A stretch of DNA of 32,000 nucleotides from Candidatus Hermodarchaeota archaeon (GTDB lineage Archaea > Asgardarchaeota > Heimdallarchaeia > Hodarchaeales > Hodarchaeaceae), in NCBI GenBank assembly GCA_048886185.1, contig JBHLKY010000009.1:90001-122000 (forward strand), in the 5' to 3' direction. Below the pieces are notes generated by a model, which did not search any database, had not been told where the DNA came from, and was given only the letters and a program-made list of their open reading frames with translations. Positions 3 through 15,730 of the stretch are shown one piece after another. The position numbers and the translations under genes were made by a program. How positions within the stretch are numbered: the stretch's first letter is position 1; every line of letters begins with the position of its first letter.

Positions 3-3000
3 TTTCCAGAACCAAATTATAATTTCGATGCTGAAGTTCAATGGGTATCTGCTGATTTTACGAAATCAAATGCTACACTGGCTATCTATACTGGTAATTT
101 AGGAATAGAGGCATTAAAAGTTGATGTGTGGAATGGATCATGGAATACGATTATTCCTAACCTGGTAGCCAATTCATGGAATAATATTAGCGTAGTGAAT
201 TATTTAACAACTTCAACTTTCACTATTAGATTCAAAGGTACGAATGAAAGCTCAGATACAACCCAGGATCAATGGAATATTGATGTGACACTACTCCACA
301 CTTGGGATAATGATGAAACTCCTCCAATGATAAATGATTTTTTCGTTGATGATCTAGGTACAGGTATCGGAATTTTTTGGGCGAATGTCACAGATTCTCA
401 ATCTGAGGTTGCAGAAGTAGATCTTGAAGTAAATTCAGTTGAATATTCTATGAACTATAATGGATCTTTATGGGTCAAACAAATCTCAGTCAATTATGGC
501 CAATATTATGAATTCCAAGTCATAAACGCTTCAGACTCAGAAAACTATATTCTCTCTCCCTCCGAAATAAGAAATCACACATTTGACTATGATTCCACAA
601 TTCCAACGGTTGAAAATTGGGAATATTATCCAAATATTGGTATTAATGGAACTTTTAAAGCGAATGTCTCTGATACTTGGGGTGAAATAGACACTGTTCT
701 TGTGAATGTTACAGAGGTTGATGGGATTCCTCGTAATGATTTATGGGCGATAATGGGTTTAACAGCCTCGGGTTACATCAACAATACACTTTTTTTGAAT
801 AAGAATAAAGTATTCAACTTTACTATCTTTGTTAATGATACTTCAGGAAATTCATATACATCATTAAAGCATACTGGAAGTGGTCCCAACCATCCTCCAC
901 AAGCATCTAATCTCTCTCTAACAATCGATCCAAGAACTAATGAATCTTTAATAGCAAATTGGACATTCTCCGATGTAGATGGAGACGATGAGCCTTTGAA
1001 TAGTTGGATTATACGCTGGTATAAATCTGGAGTACTTCAGGACTTATATAATAACCTAAAGATAATTCCCTCTACAGCAACTTCAAAAGGAGAAATATGG
1101 AATTATACACTTCAGGTATCTGATGGAGACAAGTACTCACTTCAATACAATTCACCGCCTACAACTATTATTAACACCCCTCCTGAAGCAATTAATGTAA
1201 CAATTACTTCTAAACCAACAAGTAGTGATGAATTAGTAGCAGGATGGACCGCGAGCGATATAGATGGGGATAATCCAGATAATTATCTACATGTTACCAT
1301 AATCAGATGGTATCTTTGGACTGGAAGTTGGACTGAAATTCCGGGATTAATGAACTCTACTTATGTTACAGCAGGTAATTTAACACGGAGTCAAACTTAT
1401 CGCTTTAAATTAGAGCTTTTTGATGGAGAGGAGTACTCGAAGGTCTATATTTCTCCAAATACGACAATATTAAACTCATTGCCAATTTTAACGGCTACAC
1501 CGACTTTTAATAAAACTACAGATATATTTCCAACAGATAATATAAATATCACATACTCATATAGTGATCCAGATGGCGATCTAGAAGAGACTACTCAACG
1601 AATTGTGTTATGGTATTGGAATGGTGAACTAAATTCGTCAAAAACAAATAATGTGACTTTATTAAGCTCTGAGACATCCTCGGGAGAGACTTGGCAATAT
1701 CGACTACAAGTTTATGACGGATTCAATTATAGCATAATTTACACATCAATTTTAATTTCAATTGGTGCTTATACAAATAATATACCTGAAGTTCAGAATA
1801 TTACATTAACTGGGGGGATAAATACAACCACTGTCGATCTTGTTGCCAGTTATGATTTTTTTGATCTTGATGGGCATCAAGAAGTTGAAAAAGAAATAAT
1901 TTGGTTTATGAATGGTGATATACAACCTGATCACAATAACTCATTGATAATTGGTTCTAGCTTCACAGTTAAAGGTCAAATTTGGAATTTCACCATCAAA
2001 GTTTTTGATGGTTTAAATTGGTCTTCCCAATATGTGTCTAATGAATTGATTATTCAGAATTCTATACCAAAAGTCACTGATATCCAAATTACATCAAATA
2101 CGACAACTATCCATAATTTAACCATTACTTGGGATATTTTTGATGCTGATAATGATGATGAAGATAGCTTTAACCTTAGATGGTATATCAATAATATTTA
2201 CAATAGTTCTTTTGATGATTTATCAGAAATCTCTTCATTAAACACAAAAAAAGGAGAAGAATGGATCTGTTCAATAAGAATATATGATAGCGAAAATTAT
2301 TCAATATGGTATAATTCTTCTACAACTCACATTTTGAATACACCCCCTCTAATCCAAGATTTAGAGCTAACAGGCGGTGAGAATACAAGTCAAAACATTA
2401 TTTTGAATTATGAATTCATTGATGACGATAATGATTCAGAAAACGTTGCAATTAATTGGTTTTACATAGATGGGTCGATTATACCTGGTGAGACTGGTGT
2501 TGAACTCCCCAATACCTATTTTGTTGCAGGAAATATTCTATACGCCCAAATAATTCCGAATGATGGTGAAGTTTCAGGAAATATTTATCGAACCGAATAT
2601 ATCCAGATAGGGAACGCAATTCCCCAAATTATCGGCAGTCCAGAGATTCTGGGCTTCAATGGAAGCTCTATCTATTTTGCTGCGGTACCTCTTTATGTGA
2701 ATTATACAGCAGAAGATTTAGACAGCCCAATTTATATTTATGATATAGAAATCGATGAAAACGGACTTGTATCTAATTCGAATTATAAGTGGTATAAGGA
2801 TGGAGACATTGTGAGTGAATTAACTGGCCCAACTGTACCAACTTATTACTTGTCCAAAGGCGATACTTGGATAGTAAGTGTCCAAATAAAAGATAGGTTC
2901 AATGATGTTAGTTTTTGGAAAAATTCTTCAACAATAGTGATTGGGAATACACCTCCTGAAATTGGATCATTTACTTGGTCAACAAGTTCCCCAACTGTAC

Positions 3001-5471
3001 AAAATGATTTGTCCTTTTCATATACTTATTATGACCTTGATTCTGATTCCGAAAGTAAAAGTCAAGTCATAATTTTTTGGTACAAGAATGGAACAGAAAT
3101 AGCACGGAATCAAAGTACCTTATCTAGTTTCCTATTTAATAGAGGAGATGAGATTAACGTTTCAATTCGTGTATCGGATGGAGAAGACTACAGTCTCTTT
3201 TACAATTCAACAACAGTCATTGTGGTTAATGCAATTCCTGAAGCTTATAACCTTGCTATTACACCGAGTAATCCTTATACTTATGATACATTAGCATTAG
3301 ATTATGATTTCATAGATTATGATAATGACAATGAAAGCTCTGAATGGATTATTCATTGGGTTCGAAATGGGCTTCCTGTTTCTGAATTTGTAAATAAGAC
3401 AAAGGTAAATGCTTCTTATACTTCAGCAGGTGAAGTATGGTTTGCTTACCTAACAGTATTCGACTCTCTAGATTATAGTCAAGAGTATACCGTGCCTTAT
3501 AAGATCATTTTGAATTCAGCCCCCCGAATATTAAGTGTTTCTATCAATGAGAACACTAATACTAGCTACGCAGATTCTAATCTGTTTTTAAATCCGAATG
3601 AAGATATAACATTCTATGATCCCGATCTGGATCCAATATTAGGGTATACAATTACTTGGGTAAGAAATTATACATTTCAGCCAATTTATACAGATCAAAC
3701 TACAATTTTGAATTCTGAACTTAGTAAAGGAGACGTATGGTTTGTTATTGTGAGAGTATTTGACGGAAAAGACTGGTCGAGTAATCAATCGTCTCAAGAA
3801 GTATTTATTATTAATAAATCCCCCGAAGTTCTTGATTTGAGGGTTATAAATACGGCTTTTTCTGATTTCTTACTTGAAAATGAAAACATTGTGTTAGCTT
3901 ATACGTTTCTAGATATAGATTATGACACAGACAGCTCAGTAATTAACTGGTATCGCAATCAAACTTTACTCCCTGAGTATTCTAATTTGACAGTAATCCC
4001 AGCCAGTGCAACCTCTCCGGGAGATATTTGGTATGTTGAAATTCAGCCATATGATGGTGAATCATTTGGTACTCAAATGAACATTTCAATGCATATAGAA
4101 AGCCATCCAATGATTAATGAGATCAGTATTGAAATTAATTTAGATAAAGAAGGTCATTATACTTTCTTGATTAATGTTACAGATCCGAGAAATCCGATTT
4201 CAGAAACCATTTTGATTTTCAGCTTCCAGAATGATACATTAGAACAAACGAAATGGGCTGAATTCAATGGTTCAGAATGGATCTTAGATTATGAACTAGA
4301 AAACTATTCTCTTCTAGGAAATTTAGTAAAGATAGAAGTAATAGCGATTTCAGAAGTCTATTATTCAACTAGGTTTGAAATATCTTCATCGAGTATTTTT
4401 TACTATGAAATGGAAGATAATGTTGCTCCTCGTGTAATAGACGCATTTTTCGAAAAAGATGATGAGTCGAATCCGAGATATTTAACTTTTTATACGCAAA
4501 TTGAAGAATTTGGAATAGGTGTTGATGAAGTCATTCTTTATTACTATTTTCAACCTTACACTGAGGGAAGTGGAGCCAGTAATACTAACTGGCTCAGTTC
4601 TTCAATGATTTTTCAAAATAGAAGTATTATGGATGGTTTAGAGTACTGGGCAGTAGTAGTAGATTTTAATCATAACAACTCTAATTTTGAAATTCTTTAT
4701 TATATTTCAACCTCCGATCTTTCTGGAAACAAAAATGCACTTGCGTTTGATATAAGAGATTTTCCTCAACGTATCAGTGAGAATAGATTTATTTATAAAT
4801 CTCCTGGATTACCAGAATGGCTAGTAATTCTCTCATTTATTTTGGTGTTCTGCATTTTAATTGGATCTGTTGCCTACATTAAGTTCATCCGTAAGCCTGA
4901 ACTCGTTGGTTTTGATAAAAAAGTAGTAATGAAAAATGTTACCAAAATAAGTCATGAAGAAGTAATAGCTTCTATGGATCTTCATACACTTGGAATTGTT
5001 CTTTCTTATTTTGACCAGAGATCGGGACCCCTTCCCTTAATTGTAATTCCAGATCTATTACAAGATAATATAGCACCTTTAATAGCACTTTCAGATCGTT
5101 CATTCAACAGTTGTGGTTTTGCCAGTGATTTCACCTCTAAAACCTTTTCAAGTTTTGATTACTCTTTGGAAAGCCTTATACGCGTAAATTCAATGTCCTA
5201 TGGTTATTCAATAGAAAATCCAGAAGCAAGAGGGGGAGCTGAGCATTTTACTGTGAATATTCTCGTTGTTCCTGAAATATTTCCATTAATCAATCAATTC
5301 AAGGAAGAACTACAGGATTCTGTTCATGACATCCACATGTTGATGACAATTGAACCTGAAAATAAGAGTGGAATCTTATCATCGGTCGTTAATCTTAGGG
5401 AAAAAGTCTCATATATTGTTTTATCCTATAAGGACATTTATCAAACTACCGAGTTGATCGAGGAAGGATGA
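3..5471 (+). CDS. Giant single-pass cell-surface glycoprotein (5'-partial): beta-rich extracellular domains, 11 Ig/cadherin-like repeats, TM helix, cytoplasmic longin/uDENN-like domain
   Basis: The frame is open from base 3 (FPEPNYNFDAEVQW...), so the GTG at 126 is internal and the true start lies upstream of the window. Many N-x-S/T sequons, N-x-x-P...DxDGD...W repeats, hydrophobic LVILSFILVFCILIGSVAYI followed by KFIRK, then a ~190-aa tail. Confidence 0.9.
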   Translation, partial: FPEPNYNFDAEVQWVSADFTKSNATLAIYTGNLGIEALKVDVWNGSWNTIIPNLVANSWNNISVVNYLTTSTFTIRFKGTNESSDTTQDQWNIDVTLLHTWDNDETPPMINDFFVDDLGTGIGIFWANVTDSQSEVAEVDLEVNSVEYSMNYNGSLWVKQISVNYGQYYEFQVINASDSENYILSPSEIRNHTFDYDSTIPTVENWEYYPNIGINGTFKANVSDTWGEIDTVLVNVTEVDGIPRNDLWAIMGLTASGYINNTLFLNKNKVFNFTIFVNDTSGNSYTSLKHTGSGPNHPPQASNLSLTIDPRTNESLIANWTFSDVDGDDEPLNSWIIRWYKSGVLQDLYNNLKIIPSTATSKGEIWNYTLQVSDGDKYSLQYNSPPTTIINTPPEAINVTITSKPTSSDELVAGWTASDIDGDNPDNYLHVTIIRWYLWTGSWTEIPGLMNSTYVTAGNLTRSQTYRFKLELFDGEEYSKVYISPNTTILNSLPILTATPTFNKTTDIFPTDNINITYSYSDPDGDLEETTQRIVLWYWNGELNSSKTNNVTLLSSETSSGETWQYRLQVYDGFNYSIIYTSILISIGAYTNNIPEVQNITLTGGINTTTVDLVASYDFFDLDGHQEVEKEIIWFMNGDIQPDHNNSLIIGSSFTVKGQIWNFTIKVFDGLNWSSQYVSNELIIQNSIPKVTDIQITSNTTTIHNLTITWDIFDADNDDEDSFNLRWYINNIYNSSFDDLSEISSLNTKKGEEWICSIRIYDSENYSIWYNSSTTHILNTPPLIQDLELTGGENTSQNIILNYEFIDDDNDSENVAINWFYIDGSIIPGETGVELPNTYFVAGNILYAQIIPNDGEVSGNIYRTEYIQIGNAIPQIIGSPEILGFNGSSIYFAAVPLYVNYTAEDLDSPIYIYDIEIDENGLVSNSNYKWYKDGDIVSELTGPTVPTYYLSKGDTWIVSVQIKDRFNDVSFWKNSSTIVIGNTPPEIGSFTWSTSSPTVQNDLSFSYTYYDLDSDSESKSQVIIFWYKNGTEIARNQSTLSSFLFNRGDEINVSIRVSDGEDYSLFYNSTTVIVVNAIPEAYNLAITPSNPYTYDTLALDYDFIDYDNDNESSEWIIHWVRNGLPVSEFVNKTKVNASYTSAGEVWFAYLTVFDSLDYSQEYTVPYKIILNSAPRILSVSINENTNTSYADSNLFLNPNEDITFYDPDLDPILGYTITWVRNYTFQPIYTDQTTILNSELSKGDVWFVIVRVFDGKDWSSNQSSQEVFIINKSPEVLDLRVINTAFSDFLLENENIVLAYTFLDIDYDTDSSVINWYRNQTLLPEYSNLTVIPASATSPGDIWYVEIQPYDGESFGTQMNISMHIESHPMINEISIEINLDKEGHYTFLINVTDPRNPISETILIFSFQNDTLEQTKWAEFNGSEWILDYELENYSLLGNLVKIEVIAISEVYYSTRFEISSSSIFYYEMEDNVAPRVIDAFFEKDDESNPRYLTFYTQIEEFGIGVDEVILYYYFQPYTEGSGASNTNWLSSSMIFQNRSIMDGLEYWAVVVDFNHNNSNFEILYYISTSDLSGNKNALAFDIRDFPQRISENRFIYKSPGLPEWLVILSFILVFCILIGSVAYIKFIRKPELVGFDKKVVMKNVTKISHEEVIASMDLHTLGIVLSYFDQRSGPLPLIVIPDLLQDNIAPLIALSDRSFNSCGFASDFTSKTFSSFDYSLESLIRVNSMSYGYSIENPEARGGAEHFTVNILVVPEIFPLINQFKEELQDSVHDIHMLMTIEPENKSGILSSVVNLREKVSYIVLSYKDIYQTTELIEEG
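888..4097 (+). repeat. 11 tandem ~92-111 aa Ig/cadherin-like protein repeats
   Basis: Units start NHPP, NTPP, NSLP, NNIP, NSIP, NTPP, NAIP, NTPP, NAIP, NSAP, NKSP. Each has a D-x-D-(G/N/S)-D-like motif, an I-x-W-Y/F strand, a (K/S)G(E/D)xW motif and a (V/I)xDG..(Y/W)S hairpin. Confidence 0.85.
4821..4880 (+). other. Transmembrane helix of the giant surface protein
   Basis: 20 hydrophobic residues LVILSFILVFCILIGSVAYI followed by basic KFIRK (positive-inside rule). Confidence 0.85.
4989..5468 (+). other. Cytoplasmic longin/uDENN-like domain
   Basis: LGIVLSYFDQRSGPLPLIVIP resembles the uDENN first beta-hairpin (hhhxxFDxxxGPxxxxxxP). ENPEARGGAEHFTVNILV resembles the DxxARG(F)xRxxxhxh motif of folliculin/SMCR8 uDENN. 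Recognised by eye only. Confidence 0.6.
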
Positions 5472-5828: not shown

Positions 5829-6938
5829 ATGAATATCTTGAAGAATCACGATCTTTGGAAGAATGAACATTTTGGGACTGAACCTCCCTGTATAACATAT
5901 GAACTGAAACCATTGCTTACTCCTCAAGGGGAGATAATCGAAGAGCTTTATTCTGCTTGGATTATACTTAATAATCCTGCCCAATTAAATTCTTATAACA
6001 CAGAAATGGTTAAAGGGGTCATTGCAGGATTTTCTCGAGCGTCAATGGATCGAAGTGTAGTTGCTGTTGTTTTTACTGGTGCTGGGGATCGAGCTTTTTG
6101 TAGTGGTGGAAATACAAAAGAATACGCGGAATATTACTCTAGTAAACCAAATGAGTATGGATTGTATATGGATCTCTTTAATGCAATGGTTGATGCGATA
6201 CTAAACTGTAAAAAACCAGTTATCTGTAGAGCTAATGGTATGAGAATTGCAGGAGGACAGGAGATAGGAATGGCTGCTGATCTGACAATTTCTGCGGACA
6301 CTGCGATTTTTGGTCAAGCTGGACCACGTCACGGTTCTGCTCCAGATGGTGGGTCTACTGATTTTCTTCCATGGTTTTTAGGTATTGAAGATGCAATGTA
6401 TAACTGTGTTTCCTGTGAAATGTGGAGTGCGTACAAGATGAAAAGGCTTGGTTTGATCACAAAAGTTGTACCAGTACTTAAAAACAATAATGGTGATTTT
6501 ATCCGAAATCCTACAGTCTATACTGATAAATACGTCAAGAATGGCGATATTGTTTATGGAGAATTCTTAACTGGCCAAGAGTTTAAAGAAGGAAGAGAAG
6601 TTATGAAAAACTGTAAAATCGATTTAACTCCTTTAGATAAAGCTGTGAATGATGTAATTTGGAATTTTACAAATTTATTTCCAGGGTGCTTAATGAAGTC
6701 TATTGATGGCATTCGAATGAAAAAGAAATTCTTTTGGGATCAAACAAAGCTTGCAAATCGTCATTGGTTATCAGTTAACATGATGACCGAAGCTTTATTA
6801 GGATTTAGGGCTTTTAATGAAAGAAAACAAACTGGAAAAGATGTGATTGACTTCATAAAATACAGAAAACTTATAGCTAAAGCACACCCATTTAATCAAG
6901 ATCTTGTTGATGCTGTTCTCCCTAAAACCAAGGAATGA
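5829..6938 (+). CDS. oah: 6-oxocyclohex-1-ene-1-carbonyl-CoA hydrolase (ring-opening, benzoyl-CoA pathway; crotonase fold)
   Basis: Long (369 aa) crotonase with Oah/BamA-typical segments: LYSAWIILNNPAQLNSY, AFCSGGNTKEYAEYY, GMRIAGGQEIGMAAD, QAGPRHGSAPDGGSTDFLP, CEMWSAYK, NMMTEA, GFRAFN. Confidence 0.88.
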   Translation: MNILKNHDLWKNEHFGTEPPCITYELKPLLTPQGEIIEELYSAWIILNNPAQLNSYNTEMVKGVIAGFSRASMDRSVVAVVFTGAGDRAFCSGGNTKEYAEYYSSKPNEYGLYMDLFNAMVDAILNCKKPVICRANGMRIAGGQEIGMAADLTISADTAIFGQAGPRHGSAPDGGSTDFLPWFLGIEDAMYNCVSCEMWSAYKMKRLGLITKVVPVLKNNNGDFIRNPTVYTDKYVKNGDIVYGEFLTGQEFKEGREVMKNCKIDLTPLDKAVNDVIWNFTNLFPGCLMKSIDGIRMKKKFFWDQTKLANRHWLSVNMMTEALLGFRAFNERKQTGKDVIDFIKYRKLIAKAHPFNQDLVDAVLPKTKE

Positions 6939-6944
6939 TGTGAA

Positions 6945-8153
6945 ATGAGATTTCAAAATACATACATACCTTATGGTTGTTACTGGTCTACGCCCTTCGT
7001 TCGTTGGCAAGGTAGCTTCTCCAGCTTAAATGCTGTTCCTTTTGCAGCTGAAATGACAATCAAGGCTTTAAAAGCACGTAATATTTCTCCTGGTTCATTT
7101 GATTCACTTTATCTTGGAATTACAATACCACAGAAGCATAGTTTTTATGGTCAAACGTGGTTTGCAGGTTTGATCGGAGCTCCCGAGATTACTGGACCTA
7201 TGATTGCCCAAGCTTGTGCAACTTCTGCTCGAATCATCGGTAATGCTTCTTCCGAGATCGAAGCTAGTAGTCCAAGGCATCGATCTATCCTAGCTGTGAC
7301 TTGTGATCGCACTAGTAATGGGCCTCACATACTATATCCCAATCCTCTTGCCCCAGGTGGTAAAGCTGACATAGAAAACTGGGTCTGGGATAACTTTGGT
7401 TATGATCCATATGCCAGAAATCCAATGATACAAACAGCAGAAAATGTTGCTAAAGAAGCAGGAATCACTAGGGAAGAGCAGGAAGAAATCGTTCTATTAC
7501 GCTATAATCAGTATAACGATGCCTTAGACAACAACTCATCTTTCCTTCGTAAATTTATGATTTCACCTATTGAAGTAAAATCCGGGAAGAAGACTATTGC
7601 AACTGTTGAGGGTGATGAAGGAGTTTTCCCTACTACTGCAGAAGGTCTTGCAAAGTTAGTACCTGTTCTCAAGGAGGGAACAGTAACGTATGGAGCTCAA
7701 ACACACCCATCTGACGGTAATGCTGGTATGATCTTAACATCAAGAGAGAAAGCTCAAAAAATCAGTCTTAACAAAGATTTTGAGATCCGAATCTTATCTT
7801 TTGGCCAAGCTCGAAGTAAAAAAGGATTTATGCCTATGGCACCAGTCCCCGCAGCTAGAAATGCCTTGGAATCGGCACAGATCTCAATTGAAGACATTAG
7901 CTGCGTTAAAATGCACAATCCATTTGCTGTGAATGATGTATACTTCAGTCAAGAAATGGGAATAGCTAAAGAAGATATTAACAATTTTGGTTCTTCTCTT
8001 GTTTGGGGTCACCCTCAAGCACCAACTGGCATGCGTCTGATTATTGAACTTATTGAAGAGCTTGCTTTAAAGAACGGAGGCTATGGGCTCTTTACAGGGT
8101 GTTCTGCTGGTGATTCCGCAGCCTCAATGGTTATTGAAGTCAGTAAGGTTTAA
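6945..8153 (+). CDS. Thiolase (acetyl-CoA C-acyltransferase), probably 3-oxoacyl/3-oxopimeloyl-CoA type
   Basis: QACATS (nucleophilic Cys), HNPF in place of the NEAF motif, VWGHPQAPTG, C-terminal GCSAG. Begins 6 nt after the oah stop. Confidence 0.88.
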   Translation: MRFQNTYIPYGCYWSTPFVRWQGSFSSLNAVPFAAEMTIKALKARNISPGSFDSLYLGITIPQKHSFYGQTWFAGLIGAPEITGPMIAQACATSARIIGNASSEIEASSPRHRSILAVTCDRTSNGPHILYPNPLAPGGKADIENWVWDNFGYDPYARNPMIQTAENVAKEAGITREEQEEIVLLRYNQYNDALDNNSSFLRKFMISPIEVKSGKKTIATVEGDEGVFPTTAEGLAKLVPVLKEGTVTYGAQTHPSDGNAGMILTSREKAQKISLNKDFEIRILSFGQARSKKGFMPMAPVPAARNALESAQISIEDISCVKMHNPFAVNDVYFSQEMGIAKEDINNFGSSLVWGHPQAPTGMRLIIELIEELALKNGGYGLFTGCSAGDSAASMVIEVSKV

Positions 8154-8209: not shown

Positions 8210-9103
8210 TTACCTGAAAGAACGTGGTTCAGGTGGTTGTTTAGAGTAATCATAGAACCCTTTACCAGTTTTTCTACCAAAATGGCCCGCACGAACCATT
8301 TTTCGTAAAAGAGTTGGTGCTCTGTATTTTGAATCCTGAAACTCTCCATACATGTAATCAGCAATGAAAAGTGCTGTATCAAGTCCAACAAAATCCAACA
8401 ATGTTAAAGGCCCCATTGGATGGTTCAAACCTAAAGTTATTGCTTTATCAAGATCTTCAACAGTAGCTACACCTTCTTGAAGAGTGAAAATTGCTTCTAA
8501 TAAAAATGGAAGAAGAAGACGATTAACTGCGAAACCAGGAGCTTCATTAACGAGAACTGTTTCCTTACCAAGCTTTTTTGAAAGCTCATCAGTAAAAAGA
8601 TATGTCTCGTCGGAAGTATCATATCCTTTGATGATTTCAACTAAACGCATAACAGGGACTGGATTAAAGAAATGCATCCCTATGAACTTTTCAGGACGTT
8701 TTGTTGCAGAAGCCATATCTGTAATTGATATTGATGATGTATTTGAAGCAAAAATACACTCTGGTTTACAAATCTCGTCCAATTCGGCGAAAACTTCCCT
8801 TTTTAGATCTCTATTCTCGATAATTGCTTCAATAACAACATCAGCGTTATATGCAGCAGCTTTCAAGTCAGTAGTGCCTTTGATTCGATTAACAATCTGG
8901 TTCATCTCCTCTTGGGTCATCTTTCCTTTATTAACTCCTCGAGATAAATTCTTTTTAATATTATTCATTCCATTCTCTACAAAACGATCTTCAATGTCTC
9001 TTAATGCAACTTCAAAACCAGCTTGGGCACAAACCTGTGCAATACCGTTACCCATCAGGCCTGCACCCATTACACAAATTTTCTTTACATCTTCAACTTT
9101 CAT
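8210..9103 (-). CDS. hbd: 3-hydroxybutyryl/3-hydroxyacyl-CoA dehydrogenase
   Basis: GAGLMGNGIA Rossmann motif, VIEAIIEN, ASNTSS, GMHFFNP, GFAVNR, HPMGP, GRKTGKGFYDY. Confidence 0.92.
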   Translation of the reverse strand: MKVEDVKKICVMGAGLMGNGIAQVCAQAGFEVALRDIEDRFVENGMNNIKKNLSRGVNKGKMTQEEMNQIVNRIKGTTDLKAAAYNADVVIEAIIENRDLKREVFAELDEICKPECIFASNTSSISITDMASATKRPEKFIGMHFFNPVPVMRLVEIIKGYDTSDETYLFTDELSKKLGKETVLVNEAPGFAVNRLLLPFLLEAIFTLQEGVATVEDLDKAITLGLNHPMGPLTLLDFVGLDTALFIADYMYGEFQDSKYRAPTLLRKMVRAGHFGRKTGKGFYDYSKQPPEPRSFR

Positions 9104-9133: not shown

Positions 9134-10717
9134 TCAAGAATTCTGTTCTTCATTATAACGTTCTCGGAGTATCCGATGAATGATTTTTCCTGATCCTGTT
9201 CTAGGTATATCGTCGTAATCAATGAATATAATTCTCTTAGGGACTTTAAATCTTGGTAGTTTATCTCGACAGTATTCTCTGATTTCATTTGCTAACCTAT
9301 CTGATGGTTCGCTACCCAAGGTTAAAGCACAGATTGCCGTGACTGCTTCACCCCATTTAGGATGTAATAATCCCACTACAGCGCACTCTAAAACATCTTT
9401 GTGGCTCGTGATGATCTTTTCGACTTCTGATGGGAATACATGTTCACCTCCTGTGATGATCATATTCGCCTTTCTGTCAACCAAGTAGTAATAGCTGTCC
9501 TCATCTTGTCTCGCCATGTCACCAGCGCTAAAGAAGTCACCATCCATACTCGCTGCTGTTTTCTCTGCCAGTTTGTAATAATGAGTCATTTGCATAGGAC
9601 TACGAGAGAATAGTTCACCTATTTCACCAATTGGTACTGGTTTCCTAGTATCAGGATCAAGTATTCGAAGTTGATCTGAACCAATACATTCTTGACCAAT
9701 GGATCCAACTTTCTTGAACTGATCTTCAGGTCTTAGAATAGTTACCAGACCAGCTTCAGTTGAACCATATGCTTCATAAAGCCGAACTCCCTTGAACAAT
9801 TTCATCACACCATATTTCATCTCTTTAGTGGCTGGCGCAGAGGAGGTGAGGAGAGTCTTTACTGAGCTGAGATCATATTTTTCTTTAATTTCATCTGGAA
9901 GGCTTAGAATTAGGTTATAATGAGTTGGAATTAAGGAAGTAAAGGTTATTTTCTCATGATCGAAGATCTGAAGAACCTCTTCTGGATTAAAACCATATTC
10001 CAGATGAATATAGACAGGAGCACCGATGTAAGTGAAAACGAAAGAGTAAAAAGTGCTGTTCACATGTGATAATGGCATAAGGATTAAGCCATAATCTTGG
10101 GGAGTGAAAGAAAATTCAGCTGCATTAATTAGAAAGAAAGAAATATATGAACGATGAGAACGAACCACCCCTTTGGGTCTACCTGTTGTTCCTGAAGTAT
10201 AAAGCAAAATCCATGGATCCTCTGGATCTACCTCAATTTTTGGATAATTTTCTTCCCCATCTTTGATAATATTTTCATAGTAACTCCAATTTTCTGCAAT
10301 TGGTATGTCATCTAGGCAAATATGATCAAGAGAGTCCAATCTGAAATCTACTACTAGATCCCAGTTTTTAATGGTAATCTCATAGTATCTAGACTCTACA
10401 ATAACCATTTTGCATTCAGCATTATTTACAATCCAGTAAAGATCTTTAGGAAGAAGACGAAAATTCAATGGAACAATAATAAATCCTGCTTTTGCAGCAG
10501 CTCCATATATTTCCATAAATTCAACTCTGTTATTCATAAGAACAGCAATTTTATCGCCTTTTCTTAGACCTCTTTTGAGTAAACCATTTGCAAGCTTATT
10601 TGTCCTTTCATCAAACTCTTTATTAGTTAGAGAATGATTTATATCTTTAAATGCAAGTTTATTGGGATATTTGAAAGCATTGATACGTATAATTTCACCT
10701 AAATGTAGCCAGCTCAA
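9134..10717 (-). CDS. AMP-forming acyl-CoA synthetase (long-chain fatty acid or aryl/CoA ligase family)
   Basis: YTSGTTGRPKG, YGSTEAG, GDMARQD, IITGGEHVFPSEVE, PRTGSGKI. The likely start is the TTG at 10717 (SD-like GAGG upstream), not the ORF-track start at 10837. Substrate unknown. Confidence 0.9.
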   Translation of the reverse strand: MSWLHLGEIIRINAFKYPNKLAFKDINHSLTNKEFDERTNKLANGLLKRGLRKGDKIAVLMNNRVEFMEIYGAAAKAGFIIVPLNFRLLPKDLYWIVNNAECKMVIVESRYYEITIKNWDLVVDFRLDSLDHICLDDIPIAENWSYYENIIKDGEENYPKIEVDPEDPWILLYTSGTTGRPKGVVRSHRSYISFFLINAAEFSFTPQDYGLILMPLSHVNSTFYSFVFTYIGAPVYIHLEYGFNPEEVLQIFDHEKITFTSLIPTHYNLILSLPDEIKEKYDLSSVKTLLTSSAPATKEMKYGVMKLFKGVRLYEAYGSTEAGLVTILRPEDQFKKVGSIGQECIGSDQLRILDPDTRKPVPIGEIGELFSRSPMQMTHYYKLAEKTAASMDGDFFSAGDMARQDEDSYYYLVDRKANMIITGGEHVFPSEVEKIITSHKDVLECAVVGLLHPKWGEAVTAICALTLGSEPSDRLANEIREYCRDKLPRFKVPKRIIFIDYDDIPRTGSGKIIHRILRERYNEEQNS

Positions 10718-10996
10718 CGTAAATCCAACCTCTTGAAATATAATTGTATTTAATGACCTTTTAACTGATTTGACGTCAATTTTGAATTGTTTGGGAAGTG
10801 AATTGGAATGAAATCGGAAGCTTTCTGATTTTAACAAAAGAAAAAATGTTGAATTAAGTATTTTATTAATCGATATAAAATTCTTAAAGACTGCTTTTTG
10901 GGCACTAATATTAATTCCCTTTGTAATCTTTTCAATTGTTACTTTATAGTTTTTAAATAACTAAACAATGATTTTCTCTCCTTAAAATATATATTA

Positions 10997-11042: not shown

Positions 11043-12968
11043 ATGGTTGAAGGCATAATGGCGAGAATTGAGGATATTTTTGAGAATGTGAGTGATAGAA
11101 CTCTGGTTTTGCTAGGAAATGAAGCTATAGCCCGAGGAATTATAGAAGCTGGTGTGGCTGGTGTCTTCACTTATCCTGGAACTCCCTCATCTGAAATCCC
11201 AAACACTCTATATGCAGCACAGCCCATATTAAAGGATATAGGATATGATCTATATCTTGAGTGGAGTGCAAACGAAGCTGTTGCTCTTGAAAGTGCCTAT
11301 GGTTTCTCATTACTGGGTCATCGGGTAATTTTTGTCTGTAAACATGTTGGATTAAATGTTGCTGCTGATCCTTTTATGACTCTTGTCAATGCAGGTGTTA
11401 TAGGTGGATTGGTTCTTATTGTAGCTGAAGATCCTCATATGCATTCCTCACAGAATGAGCAGGACAATCGTTGGTATACAAAGATCTCAAATGCTCCCAT
11501 GTTTGAACCAAGTGATGCTAGAGAAGCAAAAGCAATGTTAAAAGATGCATTTCGTGTTAGTGAAAAGTATCAAGTTCCTGTTATTTTAAGAACTGTAACT
11601 AGAATTTCGCACTCACGTACAGATGTACACCTCGAACCCATCACTTTTCCAGAGTTTCGTCAAGCTATCTCTCTCGAAATAGATCCAAGACGGTTTGTAT
11701 GTGTACCTAGTAATGCACGTCAAAATAAACAACGGATACTAGGGATGATTAACGACATTTCAAGTTATTTGGCCGATTCCCCTTGGAACCGAGCGGAAGA
11801 GGGAGATGAGGAAACATTTGCTTTCATTACATGCGGATCAGCATATAATTACTTAAAAGAAGTCTTGATTAAACTTAGAACAAGTTACCCAATATTAAAA
11901 ATAGGTCTCTCACATCCTTTCCCAGAGTATCAAGTTACTCAATTCCTAAAGAAATATTCCTCTTCCAAAATCATAGTTGTTGAGGAGGCAGATGATGTTT
12001 TAGAGACTTTTGTAAAAAAACTAGCATTTGAGATTGGATTTGAAAATAAGATAATTGGAAGGAGAGAAGGAATCACTCCTTCTTATGGAGAACTAACAAT
12101 ACGTAAGGTTTGGAATGGTTTAACCAAAACTATGAATCTTGATTTATATCCTACAGAGATCCCTCAAGATCGATCTGATTTGACATTTGCACGGCCTCCA
12201 GTTTTATGTCCTGGATGTCCACATCGAGCGACATTTTATGCACTGAATAAAGCTATCCCTAGAAGACACCGTATAATATCTACTGATATAGGTTGTTATA
12301 CTTTAGGTGTTGCTCCTCCACTTTCTGCTGGTAACGTGACCATCTGTATGGGATCTTCTTTAGGAATTGGTTCTGGACTGGCCCATAGTCCAGGTTTAAA
12401 AGATCCAGTTGTATCAATTATTGGTGACTCAACTTTTTGGCATACTGGATTACCTGGCCTTGTAAACGCTGTTTACAATAAAAGCAATCTTTTATTGTTG
12501 GTTGTGGACAATTCAGCTACAGCTATGACTGGTTTTCAACCAAATCCTTCATCTTTTACTTCCCATTCTTCTGTTGAACCCCTATCCATTGAGGAAGCGG
12601 TTCGAGGCATTGGTGTTAAACATGTAGTAACAATTGATGCTTACAACCCCAAAGTATCAATTGAAGTTATTAAAGAAGCCATTAAGCACGAAGGAGTCTC
12701 AGTAATCGTATCCAAGGGAGAATGTGTAATTCAATCCACGCGGAGGGAGGGATTACCAAAAACCAGTTATTATATAGAAGCAGATCGTTGTGTTGGCTGC
12801 TATGCATGTGTTAACATGATTGCATGTCCAGCTATCATATGGTCAGATCGTATAACAACTGAAGAAGGTAAACCCATTCCAATGATCGATCAATCTTTAT
12901 GCACTCGTTGTGGGTTATGTGCTTCAGTATGCCCTTATGGTGTGATAGTAGAAAAGTCTGAGATTTAA
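11043..12968 (+). CDS. iorA: Indolepyruvate (arylpyruvate):ferredoxin oxidoreductase alpha subunit
   Basis: LLGNEAIARG, YPGTPSSEI, KHVGLNVAAD, SSQNEQD, LCPGCPHR, DIGCYTLG, TPP-binding GDSTFWHTG, C-terminal 2x[4Fe-4S] (CVGCYAC...CP; CTRCGLCASVCP). Alternative start ATG at 11058. Confidence 0.95.
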   Translation: MVEGIMARIEDIFENVSDRTLVLLGNEAIARGIIEAGVAGVFTYPGTPSSEIPNTLYAAQPILKDIGYDLYLEWSANEAVALESAYGFSLLGHRVIFVCKHVGLNVAADPFMTLVNAGVIGGLVLIVAEDPHMHSSQNEQDNRWYTKISNAPMFEPSDAREAKAMLKDAFRVSEKYQVPVILRTVTRISHSRTDVHLEPITFPEFRQAISLEIDPRRFVCVPSNARQNKQRILGMINDISSYLADSPWNRAEEGDEETFAFITCGSAYNYLKEVLIKLRTSYPILKIGLSHPFPEYQVTQFLKKYSSSKIIVVEEADDVLETFVKKLAFEIGFENKIIGRREGITPSYGELTIRKVWNGLTKTMNLDLYPTEIPQDRSDLTFARPPVLCPGCPHRATFYALNKAIPRRHRIISTDIGCYTLGVAPPLSAGNVTICMGSSLGIGSGLAHSPGLKDPVVSIIGDSTFWHTGLPGLVNAVYNKSNLLLLVVDNSATAMTGFQPNPSSFTSHSSVEPLSIEEAVRGIGVKHVVTIDAYNPKVSIEVIKEAIKHEGVSVIVSKGECVIQSTRREGLPKTSYYIEADRCVGCYACVNMIACPAIIWSDRITTEEGKPIPMIDQSLCTRCGLCASVCPYGVIVEKSEI

Positions 12969-12994
12969 TACAAATGATCTGAAAGGAGTTTAAA

Positions 12995-13456
12995 ATGAAA
13001 CAATTAAATCCGAAATGGTGTGAATGGATTCTTCCTATAATAAACTCGAATCCATTTTTCTCTTTTTTTGGTATCAAGCTTAACGAATTTAGATATGGAG
13101 AGTCGTTCTTAGAACTTGATATAAAGGAAAATCACCTCCAATTACATGGGGTTATTCATGGTGGTGTTTCTGCTGCATTGATTGATGCTGCAGGAACTTT
13201 AGCTGTAGTGACTCAGATAGAGGGACTTAATAGTGCTACCACAATCGATATGAAGGTAAATTATTTATCAAGTGCCAAAGAAGGTAAAATTCTAGCATAT
13301 GGCCATTGTATTAAGCTTGGGAACACGATTGGTGTATCAGAAGCAACAATCAGGGATGAAGAAGAGAAAATCATCGCTCATGGATTAGTAACAGTGATGA
13401 TAAGGCCTCCTATTGATTTCCCAGGGGTGGATCAAATACCTCCAAAATTTTTGTGA
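12995..13456 (+). CDS. PaaI-family hotdog-fold acyl-CoA thioesterase
   Basis: HLQLHGVIHGGVSAALIDAAG motif, TIDMKVNYL, AAAGGAG SD upstream. Confidence 0.88.
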   Translation: MKQLNPKWCEWILPIINSNPFFSFFGIKLNEFRYGESFLELDIKENHLQLHGVIHGGVSAALIDAAGTLAVVTQIEGLNSATTIDMKVNYLSSAKEGKILAYGHCIKLGNTIGVSEATIRDEEEKIIAHGLVTVMIRPPIDFPGVDQIPPKFL

Positions 13457-13487
13457 TTTAGATGCTATTGAAGTTATAGGTGATAAT

Positions 13488-14084
13488 ATGGAATATCAAA
13501 TTTTCCTTGCTGGCGTGGGAGGACAGGGAATACTTTCTGTAACTGATATAATATGTAAATCTGCTGTTGATATGGGTTTTAGGGTTCATGGTTCTGAAAC
13601 ACATGGTATGTCTCAGCGAGGTGGGAGTGTTTTCTCAAATGTTCGTTTTGGGGATGTATTTTCACCACTGATCATGGAACGTGATTCTGATGTCCTTCTT
13701 GCTTTTGAACCAACAGAAGCTTTACGATATGCTCAATTTGTAAAACCAAAAGGGATTTGTCTTGTAAATACACATCCCATTCCTTCTCCGAGTTTTACAT
13801 TAACTAAAAGTAATTATCCTGAAATTGAATCCATTATAACAGCTTTAAAGGCTTATAGTCCTCACATTGTTCCAATTAATGCTACAAAACTAGCAACTGA
13901 TTTAGGAATGGCAATTGTTCAAAATATTGTTATGTTAGGAGCTCTATCAGCAGTAGAAGGGCTCCCTCTTTCAAAAAGTTCTCTCTTAGTGGCATTAAAA
14001 AAGCAATTTAAGGCTAAACATTTTGATATCAACCTTGAGGCATTTCAGGCAGGGCATCAAGCCTATGTGGATAGCCTTTGTTGA
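13488..14084 (+). CDS. iorB: Indolepyruvate:ferredoxin oxidoreductase beta subunit
   Basis: AGVGGQGIL, SETHGMSQRGGSV, FEPTEALR, NIVMLGAL. True start ATG 13488 with AGGTGA SD; the ORF-track start 13413 overlaps the thioesterase gene. Confidence 0.93.
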   Translation: MEYQIFLAGVGGQGILSVTDIICKSAVDMGFRVHGSETHGMSQRGGSVFSNVRFGDVFSPLIMERDSDVLLAFEPTEALRYAQFVKPKGICLVNTHPIPSPSFTLTKSNYPEIESIITALKAYSPHIVPINATKLATDLGMAIVQNIVMLGALSAVEGLPLSKSSLLVALKKQFKAKHFDINLEAFQAGHQAYVDSLC

Positions 14085-15712: not shown

Positions 15713-15730
15713 AATTTGATCTTCGTTTCC

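What the first reader, a model, noticed from the sequence alone, without database searches (positions are those of the whole stretch)
5829..8153. Anaerobic benzoyl-CoA ring-cleavage module (oah + thiolase) in a probable Asgard archaeon
Seen: a full-length Oah with its characteristic motifs, coupled to a thiolase. Established: Oah/BamA is the diagnostic ring-opening step of anaerobic aromatic degradation; in cultured archaea the pathway is best known from Ferroglobus, and for Asgard lineages it is only a genomic prediction. The usual partners (benzoyl-CoA reductase, dienoyl-CoA hydratase Dch, dehydrogenase Had) are not in this window. Either the pathway is split across the genome or Oah serves an alicyclic substrate such as a cyclohexene-carboxyl-CoA.
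Basis: partly seen in the sequence, partly recalled or inferred. Interest (0 to 1): 0.62.

Follow-up and report, generated by a model that had tools for sequence, protein, structure and literature searches.

The report
Asgard benzoyl-CoA ring-opening gene pair
An Asgard archaeon of the Hodarchaeum group carries an intact gene for the enzyme that opens the benzene-derived ring without oxygen, next to a thiolase, and the rest of the pathway lies 24-40 kb upstream on the same contig; the reading is right, but this pathway was already predicted for Asgard archaea in 2021.

Summary
[quoted passage not shown] Six bases downstream, 6945-8153 (+) encodes a divergent thiolase that keeps its catalytic residues.

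The host is an Asgard archaeon of the genus that includes Ca. Hodarchaeum mangrovi.

- bzdN, bzdO and bzdQ, all above their NCBIfam cut-offs, plus a second ATPase, 30-33 kb upstream;
- a Dch-like hydratase and a Had-like dehydrogenase 24 kb upstream;
- an acyl-CoA dehydrogenase/ETF set about 5-9 kb upstream.

In sister genomes these genes form one contiguous cluster.

Most likely function: ring opening within an ATP-dependent class I (bzd-type) benzoyl-CoA pathway. The adjacent thiolase and 3-hydroxyacyl-CoA dehydrogenase would then carry out beta-oxidation of the ring-opened product.

What this work adds:
- Oah is rare in Asgard genomes (16 of 301), while BzdO is common (45 of 301).
- The cluster's content most resembles that of Thermoplasmata.

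The pathway was predicted for Hermodarchaeota in 2021, and this scan already reported the neighbouring window. I class it as a new member of a known kind, of modest interest.

The parts
5829..6938 (+). [quoted passage not shown]
   Evidence: TIGR03200 scores 564.5 bits (cut-off 464.45) over model positions 1-360 of 360; BadI scores 109 and MenB 97. The Pfam ECH_1 domain covers only residues 44-216. It is the single copy above the cut-off in the genome. It is 70-88% identical to proteins that NCBI names Oah in Hodarchaeales and Heimdallarchaeota.
6945..8153 (+). Divergent thiolase, 402 aa, 6 nt downstream of oah. Candidate 3-oxopimelyl-CoA (or acetoacetyl-CoA) thiolase.
   Evidence: Thiolase_N and Thiolase_C domains. 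TIGR01930 scores 185 bits, below the 240.55 cut-off. The catalytic Cys, His and Cys align to thiolase 4dd5. The fingerprints CAT(S/G), HNPF, GHP (GHA in one) and C(S/A)AGD are conserved in 22 orthologues. It lies directly downstream of oah in all 15 Oah-positive genomes of the genus.
8210..9103 (-). 3-hydroxyacyl-CoA dehydrogenase (Hbd type), 297 aa, convergent with the thiolase. Candidate 3-hydroxypimelyl-CoA or 3-hydroxybutyryl-CoA dehydrogenase.
   Evidence: 3HCDH_N and 3HCDH domains. NF004474 3-hydroxybutyryl-CoA dehydrogenase scores 421 bits (cut-off 408). It sits next to the thiolase in the Hodarchaeum loci (80-90% identity), and an Hbd-type gene neighbours the thiolase homologue in three Thermoplasmata loci.
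9134..10837 (-). Acyl-CoA ligase (AMP-forming), 567 aa, co-directional with hbd. Candidate activator of the acid substrate.
   Evidence: AMP-binding and AMP-binding_C domains. Its best model is NF004837 at 405 bits, below the 476 cut-off. It scores only 163 bits on the benzoate-CoA ligase model TIGR02262 (cut-off 375). It is conserved beside hbd in all Hodarchaeum loci, and a 47-52% identical ligase lies near oah in Anaerolineales and Bacillota loci.

Best explanation
The 369-aa protein is a true Oah/BamA. [quoted passage not shown] In this Hodarchaeum-type Asgard archaeon it is the last step of the upper part of a complete ATP-dependent class I (bzd-type) benzoyl-CoA pathway, spread over about 45 kb of one contig.

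Proposed route:
1. An aromatic acid is activated to benzoyl-CoA by a ligase. The ligase is not assigned; the cluster ligase at 9134-10837 is the candidate.
2. BzdNOPQ reduces benzoyl-CoA to the cyclic dienoyl-CoA. Electrons come from a small Fe-S protein and a NuoG/GltD-like, BzdV-like protein.
3. The Dch-like hydratase and then the Had-like dehydrogenase act on the dienoyl-CoA.
4. Oah opens the ring.
5. Two dehydrogenase/thiolase pairs (Hbd with the oah-adjacent thiolase, and the OB-fold/SDR fusion with an SCP-x-type thiolase) and the nearby acyl-CoA dehydrogenase/ETF genes take 3-hydroxypimelyl-CoA through glutaryl-CoA and crotonyl-CoA to acetyl-CoA.

What is shown: family membership of Oah, BzdN, BzdO and BzdQ; the operon structure; conserved synteny; co-occurrence.

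What is inferred: the roles of the Dch-like and Had-like proteins; which thiolase takes the C7 substrate and which the C4 substrate; the identity of the activating ligase; and that the pathway is expressed and supports growth.
For: - Oah scores above the equivalog cut-off over its full length.
- BzdN, BzdO and BzdQ score above their cut-offs, and a second ATPase is present, on the same contig. An Fe-S protein and an 843-aa NuoG/GltD-like protein follow bzdQ.
- The Dch-like and Had-like genes have Dch or Had as their top NCBIfam hit. They are 43-48% and 32-35% identical to the genes in the canonical dch-had-oah arrays of Betaproteobacteria and Rhodocyclales.
- In G238, G292, G181 and G119 the genes lie in one contiguous cluster of the form AOR-Fd-HdrD-like-dch-had-thiolase-OB/SDR-(ACAD)-oah-thiolase/hbd-ligase (G119 holds the dch-to-ligase part). 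G292 and G181 extend to GNAT, and G292 to the two bzd-type subunits as well.
- Co-occurrence within the genus: the thiolase is present in 15 of 15 Oah-positive genomes, Had-like in 14 of 15, and BzdO in 11 of 15. The thiolase is missing from all 6 genomes without an Oah match, Had-like from 5 of them and BzdO from 5.
- An ACAD whose best specific hit is the non-decarboxylating glutaryl-CoA dehydrogenase model (364 bits, below the cut-off) lies with ETF genes between the two cluster halves.
- The genome encodes a haem-copper oxidase subunit I. This fits the established pattern, stated from my own knowledge, that ATP-dependent class I reductases occur in organisms with respiratory capacity.
- An archaeal precedent with a type I reductase exists in Ferroglobus placidus (PMC6500515).
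Against: - There is no biochemical or expression evidence.
- The Dch-like protein (187 bits, cut-off 292.5) and the Had-like protein (223, cut-off 338.65) are below their equivalog cut-offs.
- No ligase reaches the benzoate-CoA ligase cut-off; the best scores 234 bits against 375.
- No ACAD reaches the glutaryl-CoA dehydrogenase cut-off, and glutaconyl-CoA decarboxylase was not searched for.
- Four Oah-positive relatives, including one that is 94% complete, show no BzdO. The oah-thiolase/hbd-ligase module may therefore work without the reductase.
- The genome is a 75-contig assembly with about 5% estimated contamination, although this contig is clearly archaeal.
Confidence: 0.78

Rival explanations
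1. Oah and its three neighbours (thiolase, hbd, ligase) form a self-sufficient module for alicyclic acids such as cyclohexane- or cyclohex-1-ene-carboxylate. Acyl-CoA dehydrogenases would bring these acids to the dienoyl-CoA level. The module would then work independently of, or in addition to, benzoyl-CoA reduction.
For: - The four-gene module is the most conserved unit, and the oah-thiolase pair is present in 15 of 15 Oah-positive genomes.
- Four Oah-positive relatives (G102, G136, G241, G280) have no BzdO match.
- The locus L050 (Heimdallarchaeota bin272 chromosome) has the module without dch or had within 6 kb.
- In three sister genomes an ACAD lies between oah and the SDR gene. The one tested (G292) gives partial hits to cyclohexanecarboxyl-CoA dehydrogenase models: 262 and 250 bits, far below their cut-offs.
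Against: - In this genome a complete bzd-type reductase above the cut-offs sits on the same contig and is contiguous with the cluster in sister genomes.
- The ACAD scores higher on the glutaryl-CoA dehydrogenase and acryloyl-CoA reductase models than on the cyclohexanecarboxyl-CoA models.
- The genomes lacking BzdO are incomplete (70-94%).
- Alicyclic use would still pass through Dch, Had and Oah, so it adds to the main reading and does not replace it.
Confidence: 0.15
2. The pathway runs in reverse. It would act as an electron sink and make cyclohexanecarboxylate or benzoate from crotonyl-CoA or acetyl-CoA, as in Syntrophus aciditrophicus.
For: Asgard archaea are mostly described as syntrophic fermenters. 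The window neighbours include amino-acid fermentation genes (iorAB) and beta-oxidation genes that are reversible in principle.
Against: - From my own knowledge: the reductase here is the ATP-hydrolysing class I type, whose reaction is effectively irreversible, whereas Syntrophus uses the class II system.
- The only AOR-family protein in the cluster is closer to true aldehyde oxidoreductases (365 bits) than to BamB (254 bits).
- A haem-copper oxidase is encoded, so an electron sink of this kind is not obviously needed.
Confidence: 0.04
3. The gene pair is bacterial contamination binned into an archaeal genome.
For: - Estimated contamination of the assembly is 4.96%.
- Oah is 66-73% identical to bacterial proteins.
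- GC content rises slightly over the pair, to 0.39 against about 0.33-0.35 upstream.
Against: - The same 215-kb contig carries the archaeal genes CarS, PCNA and RFC, and RagA/Gtr1 GTPases.
- The pair is present in 15 genomes of the genus, including single-contig chromosomes.
- All Hodarchaeum Oah sequences form one well-supported clan, separate from all bacterial sequences.
Confidence: 0.01

Closest known systems
bzd cluster of Azoarcus/Aromatoleum sp. CIB (bzdNOPQ reductase, ferredoxin bzdM, bzdV, and the dch, had and oah homologues bzdW, bzdX, bzdY). The gene names are from my own knowledge.
   Same: The reductase subunits are the bzd type. They pass TIGR03190, TIGR03191 and TIGR03192 and fail the Thauera-type models. 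A small Fe-S protein and a GltD/NuoG-like oxidoreductase follow the reductase genes. The order of chemistry is the same: hydratase, dehydrogenase, ring hydrolase.
   Different: The host is an archaeon. Here the cluster is split into parts over about 45 kb by unrelated genes, including an ECF transporter, RagA GTPases and an orphan ORF of more than 1800 aa. No BzdA/BadA-type benzoate-CoA ligase scores above the cut-off. Dch and Had are divergent and below their cut-offs. An AOR, an HdrD-like protein, an OB-fold/SDR fusion and a divergent thiolase are added.
Benzoyl-CoA pathway of Ferroglobus placidus, the archaeal case with experimental support (Schmid et al. 2015 and 2016, as cited in PMC6500515)
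   Same: It is an archaeon using an ATP-dependent type I benzoyl-CoA reductase, followed by Dch, Had and Oah.
   Different: F. placidus is a hyperthermophilic Fe(III)-reducing member of the Archaeoglobi with measured enzyme activities. The present case is an uncultured Asgard genome with 35% GC and no experimental data. I made no direct sequence comparison with the F. placidus proteins.
Predicted benzoyl-CoA pathway of Hermodarchaeota (Zhang et al. 2021, PMC8163825)
   Same: It is a genomic prediction of Bcr, Dch, Had and Oah plus beta-oxidation in Asgard archaea. That paper also reports Bcr genes in three Heimdallarchaeota genomes and suggests horizontal transfer.
   Different: The lineage here is the Hodarchaeum genus of Heimdallarchaeia. 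In my sample Oah was found only in this genus and in one genome of another Asgard family. That genome's Oah branches elsewhere, with Thermoplasmata and Methanomassiliicoccales. This suggests separate acquisitions.
Oah-containing clusters of uncultured Thermoplasmata/Thermoplasmatales (loci L054-L059, L062)
   Same: This is the closest match in gene content. The seven loci hold Oah (71-73% identical) and dch (52-56%), and the six that are long enough hold the SCP-x-type thiolase (60-65%); the same thiolase type (58-61%) is in three of them, bzdN (63-64%) in four and bzdO (64-66%) in four.
   Different: Gene order differs, and the alcohol dehydrogenase in the had position is only 27-31% identical. 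The tree does not resolve which lineage was the donor.

Membership tests
[quoted passage not shown] | Full-length match to the equivalog model above its curated cut-off | tested here: met
   564.5 bits against a cut-off of 464.45, model positions 1-360 of 360, residues 4-364. The genome search gives 564.1 bits.
   BadI TIGR03210 scores 109 bits and MenB 97-99 bits, and both cover only residues 42-218. The best solved structure is MenB, aligned over residues 43-217 only. In the tree the protein lies inside a set of 94 Oah sequences, separated from two paralogous crotonases of this genome by branches of more than 5 substitutions per site.
[quoted passage not shown] | C-terminal extension of about 150 aa beyond the crotonase core | tested here: met
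   Pfam ECH_1 and ECH_2 cover residues 44-216, while the Oah model extends to residue 364.
[quoted passage not shown] | Genomic association with dch, had and a benzoyl-CoA reductase | tested here: met
   All are on the same contig, 24-40 kb upstream. In sister genomes dch, had and oah are contiguous, and two loci also reach bzd-type genes.
[quoted passage not shown] | [quoted passage not shown] | not testable with these tools
   This needs an enzyme assay.
Thiolase I/II (acetyl-CoA C-acyltransferase, TIGR01930) | Thiolase_N and Thiolase_C domains with the catalytic Cys, His and Cys | tested here: met
   PF00108 and PF02803 match. The nucleophile Cys (QACATS), the His (GHP) and the second Cys (GCSAG) align to 4dd5 and are conserved in 22 orthologues.
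Thiolase I/II (acetyl-CoA C-acyltransferase, TIGR01930) | Score above the subfamily cut-off, and the canonical fingerprints CxS, NEAF, GHP and CxG (fingerprints from my own knowledge) | tested here: not met
   185.1 bits against a cut-off of 240.55. The fingerprints read CAT, HNPF, GHP and CSA. It belongs to a divergent thiolase subfamily that is common in Anaerolineae.
Thiolase I/II (acetyl-CoA C-acyltransferase, TIGR01930) | Specificity for 3-oxopimelyl-CoA | not testable with these tools
   Context only. Close relatives sit in generic beta-oxidation clusters without Oah.
Class I benzoyl-CoA reductase, bzd type (TIGR03190, TIGR03191, TIGR03192) | Subunits N, O and Q above their equivalog cut-offs, plus a second BcrAD/BadFG-type ATPase, in one operon | tested here: met
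   BzdN scores 489.3 (cut-off 453.8), BzdO 695.7 (448.6) and BzdQ 409.8 (380.2). The fourth gene matches CoA_E_activ at 217 bits. All lie at G000:C9:56631-60819 on the minus strand.
[quoted passage not shown] | Match above the equivalog cut-off | tested here: inconclusive
   Dch is the top hit, but at 186.7 bits against a cut-off of 292.5. The protein is 43-48% identical to the dch genes of canonical betaproteobacterial and Rhodocyclales dch-had-oah arrays. It is adjacent to the Had-like gene.
[quoted passage not shown] | Match above the equivalog cut-off | tested here: inconclusive
   Had is the top hit, but at 223.3 bits against a cut-off of 338.65. The protein is 32-35% identical to the had genes of canonical arrays. 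It co-occurs with Oah in 14 of 15 genomes.
Class II benzoyl-CoA reductase (BamB) | An AOR-family subunit closer to BamB than to aldehyde oxidoreductases | tested here: not met
   The cluster AOR scores 365 and 348 bits to AOR structures (9mqx, 1aor) and 254 bits to BamB 4z3w. Other AOR paralogues in the genome were not examined.
Benzoate-CoA ligase (TIGR02262) | Match above the equivalog cut-off | tested here: not met
   The best match in the genome is 234 bits against a cut-off of 375.25. The cluster ligase scores 163 bits.

The most novel reading that the evidence does not exclude
Among Asgard archaea, a bzd-type reductase is widespread, but the ring-opening Oah is confined to the Hodarchaeum genus and one other lineage. 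If so, Hodarchaeum, in the order proposed as the closest relatives of eukaryotes and here also encoding a haem-copper oxidase, would be one of the few Asgard groups able to mineralise aromatic rings completely. It would do this with a cluster exchanged as a unit with Thermoplasmata. The many Oah-less Asgard 'benzoyl-CoA reductases' would then do something other than benzoate degradation.
Probability: 0.3. Interest if true: 0.55.

Novelty: new member of a known kind. Interest (0 to 1): 0.36.

Why it matters
Oah/BamA is the accepted marker gene for anaerobic breakdown of aromatic compounds. Its presence, together with an intact bzd-type reductase, makes Hodarchaeum a credible degrader of aromatic compounds in sediments. 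It also gives a concrete substrate, benzoate, to try in cultivating this slow-growing group.

The contrast within Asgard genomes matters for interpretation. BzdO was found in 45 of 301 genomes and Oah in 16 of 301. Published claims of aromatic degradation that rest on bcr-like genes alone may therefore overstate the capacity.

The finding does not change what is known about the pathway itself.

Tried and rejected
- Thauera-type BcrB model (TIGR02260). It found only two genes, and both score better as 2-hydroxyisocaproyl-CoA dehydratase HadB/HadC (237-279 bits) than as BcrB (147-167 bits). I rejected them as reductase candidates. This search missed the real bzd-type genes, which surfaced only when I annotated the neighbourhood of the sister-genome clusters.
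- The AOR next to the cluster as a class II BamB. Rejected, because it is closer to true AORs.
- Outgroup rooting of the Oah tree with two paralogous crotonases. The outgroup branches are 5-8 substitutions per site, so the root, the apparent paraphyly of the Hodarchaeum sequences and the donor lineage are all unreliable. I use only the unrooted split. I ran no AU test and no careful (bootstrap) tree.
- Named reference Oah sequences (Thauera, Geobacter, Syntrophus, Ferroglobus). None could be obtained as tool-derived sequences, so they are not in the tree.
- NarG. No match was found. Other anaerobic terminal reductases were not searched for.
- Papers on cultured Hodarchaeales. The main text of the bioRxiv preprint 10.1101/2025.02.26.640444 contains none of the words benzoyl, aromatic, benzoate or cyclohex.
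- Bacterial promoter and terminator scans were not run, because they do not apply to archaea.
Full report
**Observation**

[quoted passage not shown] It scores 564.5 bits against a curated cut-off of 464.45.
- The sister crotonases score far lower: BadI 109 bits and MenB 97-99 bits, and they cover only the N-terminal core.
- Pfam sees only the crotonase core, residues 44-216. The best solved structure is MenB over residues 43-217. The C-terminal extension of about 150 residues that the Oah model covers is therefore present, and no Oah structure exists in the PDB copy.
- This is the only copy above the cut-off in the 4.84 Mb genome.
- The second ORF has both thiolase domains but falls below the general thiolase model, 185 bits against 240.55.

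**Host**

- The nearest Oah homologues (77-88% identity) are named Hodarchaeales, Hodarchaeota, Heimdallarchaeota and Promethearchaeota. One carries the label Hermodarchaeota. The thiolase homologues, down to about 70% identity, carry mostly the same labels, with a few labelled Thor- or Odinarchaeota.
- A same-genus contig (92,013 bp) is the Ca. Hodarchaeum mangrovi record.
- The window also encodes CarS, PCNA and RFC, and RagA/Gtr1-type GTPases lie just upstream.
- Contamination is therefore not a tenable explanation.

**The missing partners**

The window is G000:C9:90001-122000. The Thauera-type BcrB model found only genes that score better as 2-hydroxyacyl-CoA dehydratases. The Dch and Had models pointed to adjacent genes at C9:70.6-72.5 kb. 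Each has Dch or Had as its top hit but lies below the cut-off: 186.7 against 292.5, and 223.3 against 338.65.

I then fetched the Oah loci of four sister genomes. In three of them (G238, G292, G181) the locus shows one cluster with this gene order; the G119 locus holds the part from dch to the ligase:

- AOR, ferredoxin, HdrD-like protein
- dch-like, had-like
- SCP-x-type thiolase, OB-fold/SDR fusion
- an ACAD in three of the genomes
- oah, thiolase
- hbd and the ligase, in the opposite orientation

In G292 and G181 the cluster continues beyond the AOR with a GNAT gene, and in G292 with two HGD-D-family genes as well. In this genome the equivalent genes are:

- BzdN: 489.3 bits, cut-off 453.8
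- BzdO: 695.7 bits, cut-off 448.6
- a second activase-type ATPase
- BzdQ: 409.8 bits, cut-off 380.2

They lie at C9:56.6-60.8 kb. A small Fe-S protein and an 843-aa NuoG/GltD-like (BzdV-like) protein follow them. Between the two halves of the cluster sit two ACADs with ETF alpha and beta genes. One ACAD has its best specific hit to the non-decarboxylating glutaryl-CoA dehydrogenase model, at 364 bits against a cut-off of 470.

It is not met.

**Conservation and distribution**

In a sample of 301 Asgard genomes:

| Gene | Genomes with a match | Where |
|---|---|---|
| Oah (E <= 1e-100) | 16 | 15 in this genus (G000 plus 14 of the 20 other sampled genomes), 1 in another family; none in the other sampled families of the same order and class |
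| BzdO (above cut-off) | 45 | five families |

Oah, and not the reductase, is therefore the rare gene in this phylum.

Within the genus (15 Oah-positive genomes):

- The thiolase orthologue lies immediately downstream of oah in all 15. It is absent from the 6 genomes without an Oah match.
- Had-like is present in 14 of the 15, and in 1 of the 6 without an Oah match.
- BzdO is present in 11 of the 15.
- The four Oah-positive genomes without BzdO are 70-94% complete. They keep a reductase-independent (alicyclic) role open.

**Phylogeny and relatives**

- A quick maximum-likelihood tree of 94 Oah sequences puts all Hodarchaeum sequences in one clan, split from the other 74 with SH-aLRT support of 100.
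- The other Asgard Oah (G025) groups with Thermoplasmata and Methanomassiliicoccales. This suggests separate acquisitions.
- The outgroup branches are too long to trust the root or to name a donor.
- Thermoplasmata loci are the most similar in content. Dch (52-56% identity) is in all seven and the SCP-x thiolase (60-65%) in six; the same thiolase type (58-61%) is in three, bzdN (63-64%) in four and bzdO (64-66%) in four.
- The canonical betaproteobacterial and Rhodocyclales dch-had-oah arrays match the Dch-like protein at 43-48% and the Had-like protein at 32-35%.

**The thiolase**

- It keeps the catalytic Cys, His and Cys.
- Its fingerprints are CAT(S/G), HNPF, GHP and C(S/A)AGD, conserved in 22 orthologues apart from GHA in one. 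The canonical fingerprints, from my own knowledge, are CxS, NEAF, GHP and CxG.
- Its closest relatives outside archaea are Anaerolineae proteins at 64-67% identity. These sit in ordinary clusters of CoA-transferase, ACAD, a dehydrogenase and a thiolase, without Oah.
- It is therefore a beta-oxidation thiolase recruited next to oah in this lineage. It is not a ring-cleavage-specific enzyme.
- The cluster holds two dehydrogenase/thiolase pairs: Hbd with this thiolase, and the OB/SDR fusion with the SCP-x thiolase. This matches the two oxidation/thiolysis rounds needed after ring opening, at the C7 and C4 levels. Which pair does which round is not decided.
- An SDR immediately downstream of oah is common in the bacterial loci. 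This slightly favours the SDR pair for the C7 step.

**Mechanism and energetics**

The most likely flow is:

1. acid to benzoyl-CoA (ligase unassigned);
2. BzdNOPQ;
3. Dch-like hydratase;
4. Had-like dehydrogenase;
5. Oah;
6. beta-oxidation to acetyl-CoA.

No ligase reaches the benzoate-CoA ligase cut-off; the best scores 234 bits against 375, and the cluster ligase scores 163. The cluster AOR is closer to true AORs than to BamB, so there is no sign of a class II reductase here. The genome encodes a haem-copper oxidase subunit I at 450 bits, and NarG was not found. From my own knowledge, ATP-dependent class I reductases occur mainly in organisms with respiratory capacity, which fits. The experimentally supported archaeal precedent, Ferroglobus placidus, also uses a type I reductase (PMC6500515).

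**Prior knowledge**

- Zhang et al. 2021 (PMC8163825) predicted Bcr, Dch, Had and Oah plus beta-oxidation in Hermodarchaeota. They also noted Bcr in three Heimdallarchaeota genomes.
- A 2021 study of Mar Piccolo Asgard genome bins found bcr but no dch, had or oah (PMC8072921). This agrees with my counts.
- NCBI already names these proteins Oah.
- Earlier notes of this scan on the neighbouring window of the same genome reached the same conclusion about the bzd operon and the cluster. I reproduced those points independently.

**Verdict**

This is a new member of a known kind. It matters modestly, mainly because Oah is the discriminating and rare gene among Asgard genomes and because it suggests a cultivation substrate.

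Noticed in passing
Genomes G079, G060, G122, G096, G067, G073 (Asgard family f17), BzdO matches listed: BzdO-type genes that score above the cut-off carry exactly one in-frame TAG (TAA in one genome) in six genomes of a single Asgard family. This may be stop-codon recoding or a non-standard residue, not decay.
   Followed up: no
Asgard phylum sample: BzdO above the cut-off occurs in 45 of 301 Asgard genomes (families f14 21/68, f17 10/19). Oah occurs in only 16 of 301. Most Asgard bzd-type reductases therefore lack the canonical ring-opening partner and may have another role or another downstream route.
   Followed up: partly
window 3-5471 (+): An open frame of at least 1822 aa runs off the window start and has no Pfam match at E <= 1e-4. 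It is a large orphan protein lying between the RagA-type GTPase genes and oah.
   Followed up: partly
window 11043-14084 (+): The indolepyruvate:ferredoxin oxidoreductase genes iorA (TIGR03336, 658 bits) and iorB are separated by a hotdog/PaaI-like thioesterase gene (12995-13456) that overlaps the listed start of iorB. This is an unusual insertion, and it may release arylacetate from the arylacetyl-CoA product.
   Followed up: no
window 14132-19155: A CitF-like citrate lyase alpha/CoA-transferase gene (14132-15712, +) lies opposite a two-gene set on the minus strand. That set encodes a succinyl-CoA-synthetase-like beta subunit and an alpha subunit fused to a citryl-CoA lyase domain, an arrangement like ATP-citrate lyase or citryl-CoA synthetase/lyase.
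   Followed up: no
L027:9875-11569 (-) and L027:12149-13051 (+), which is G000:C9:85875-89051, just upstream of the window: Two Gtr1/RagA-family GTPase genes (eukaryotic signature proteins) lie between the two halves of the benzoyl-CoA cluster. In sister genomes the cluster is contiguous without them, so the adjacency appears incidental.
   Followed up: partly
G000:C1:45387-46727 (-): A haem-copper oxidase subunit I (PF00115, 450 bits) is encoded in the same genome as an oxygen-sensitive class I benzoyl-CoA reductase.
   Followed up: no
G000:C17:12316-14711 (L028:8316-10711, -) and G000:C9:47575-48807: Two further HGD-D family loci score best as 2-hydroxyisocaproyl-CoA dehydratase HadB/HadC. 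One sits next to two SDR genes, and the other is a lone alpha-type subunit with an activase gene about 1.5 kb downstream. Genes like these could be mistaken for bcr.
   Followed up: partly
P0001 (window 5829-6938) against the PDB: No solved structure of any Oah/BamA is in the PDB copy. The best hit is MenB, which covers only the crotonase core.
   Followed up: no
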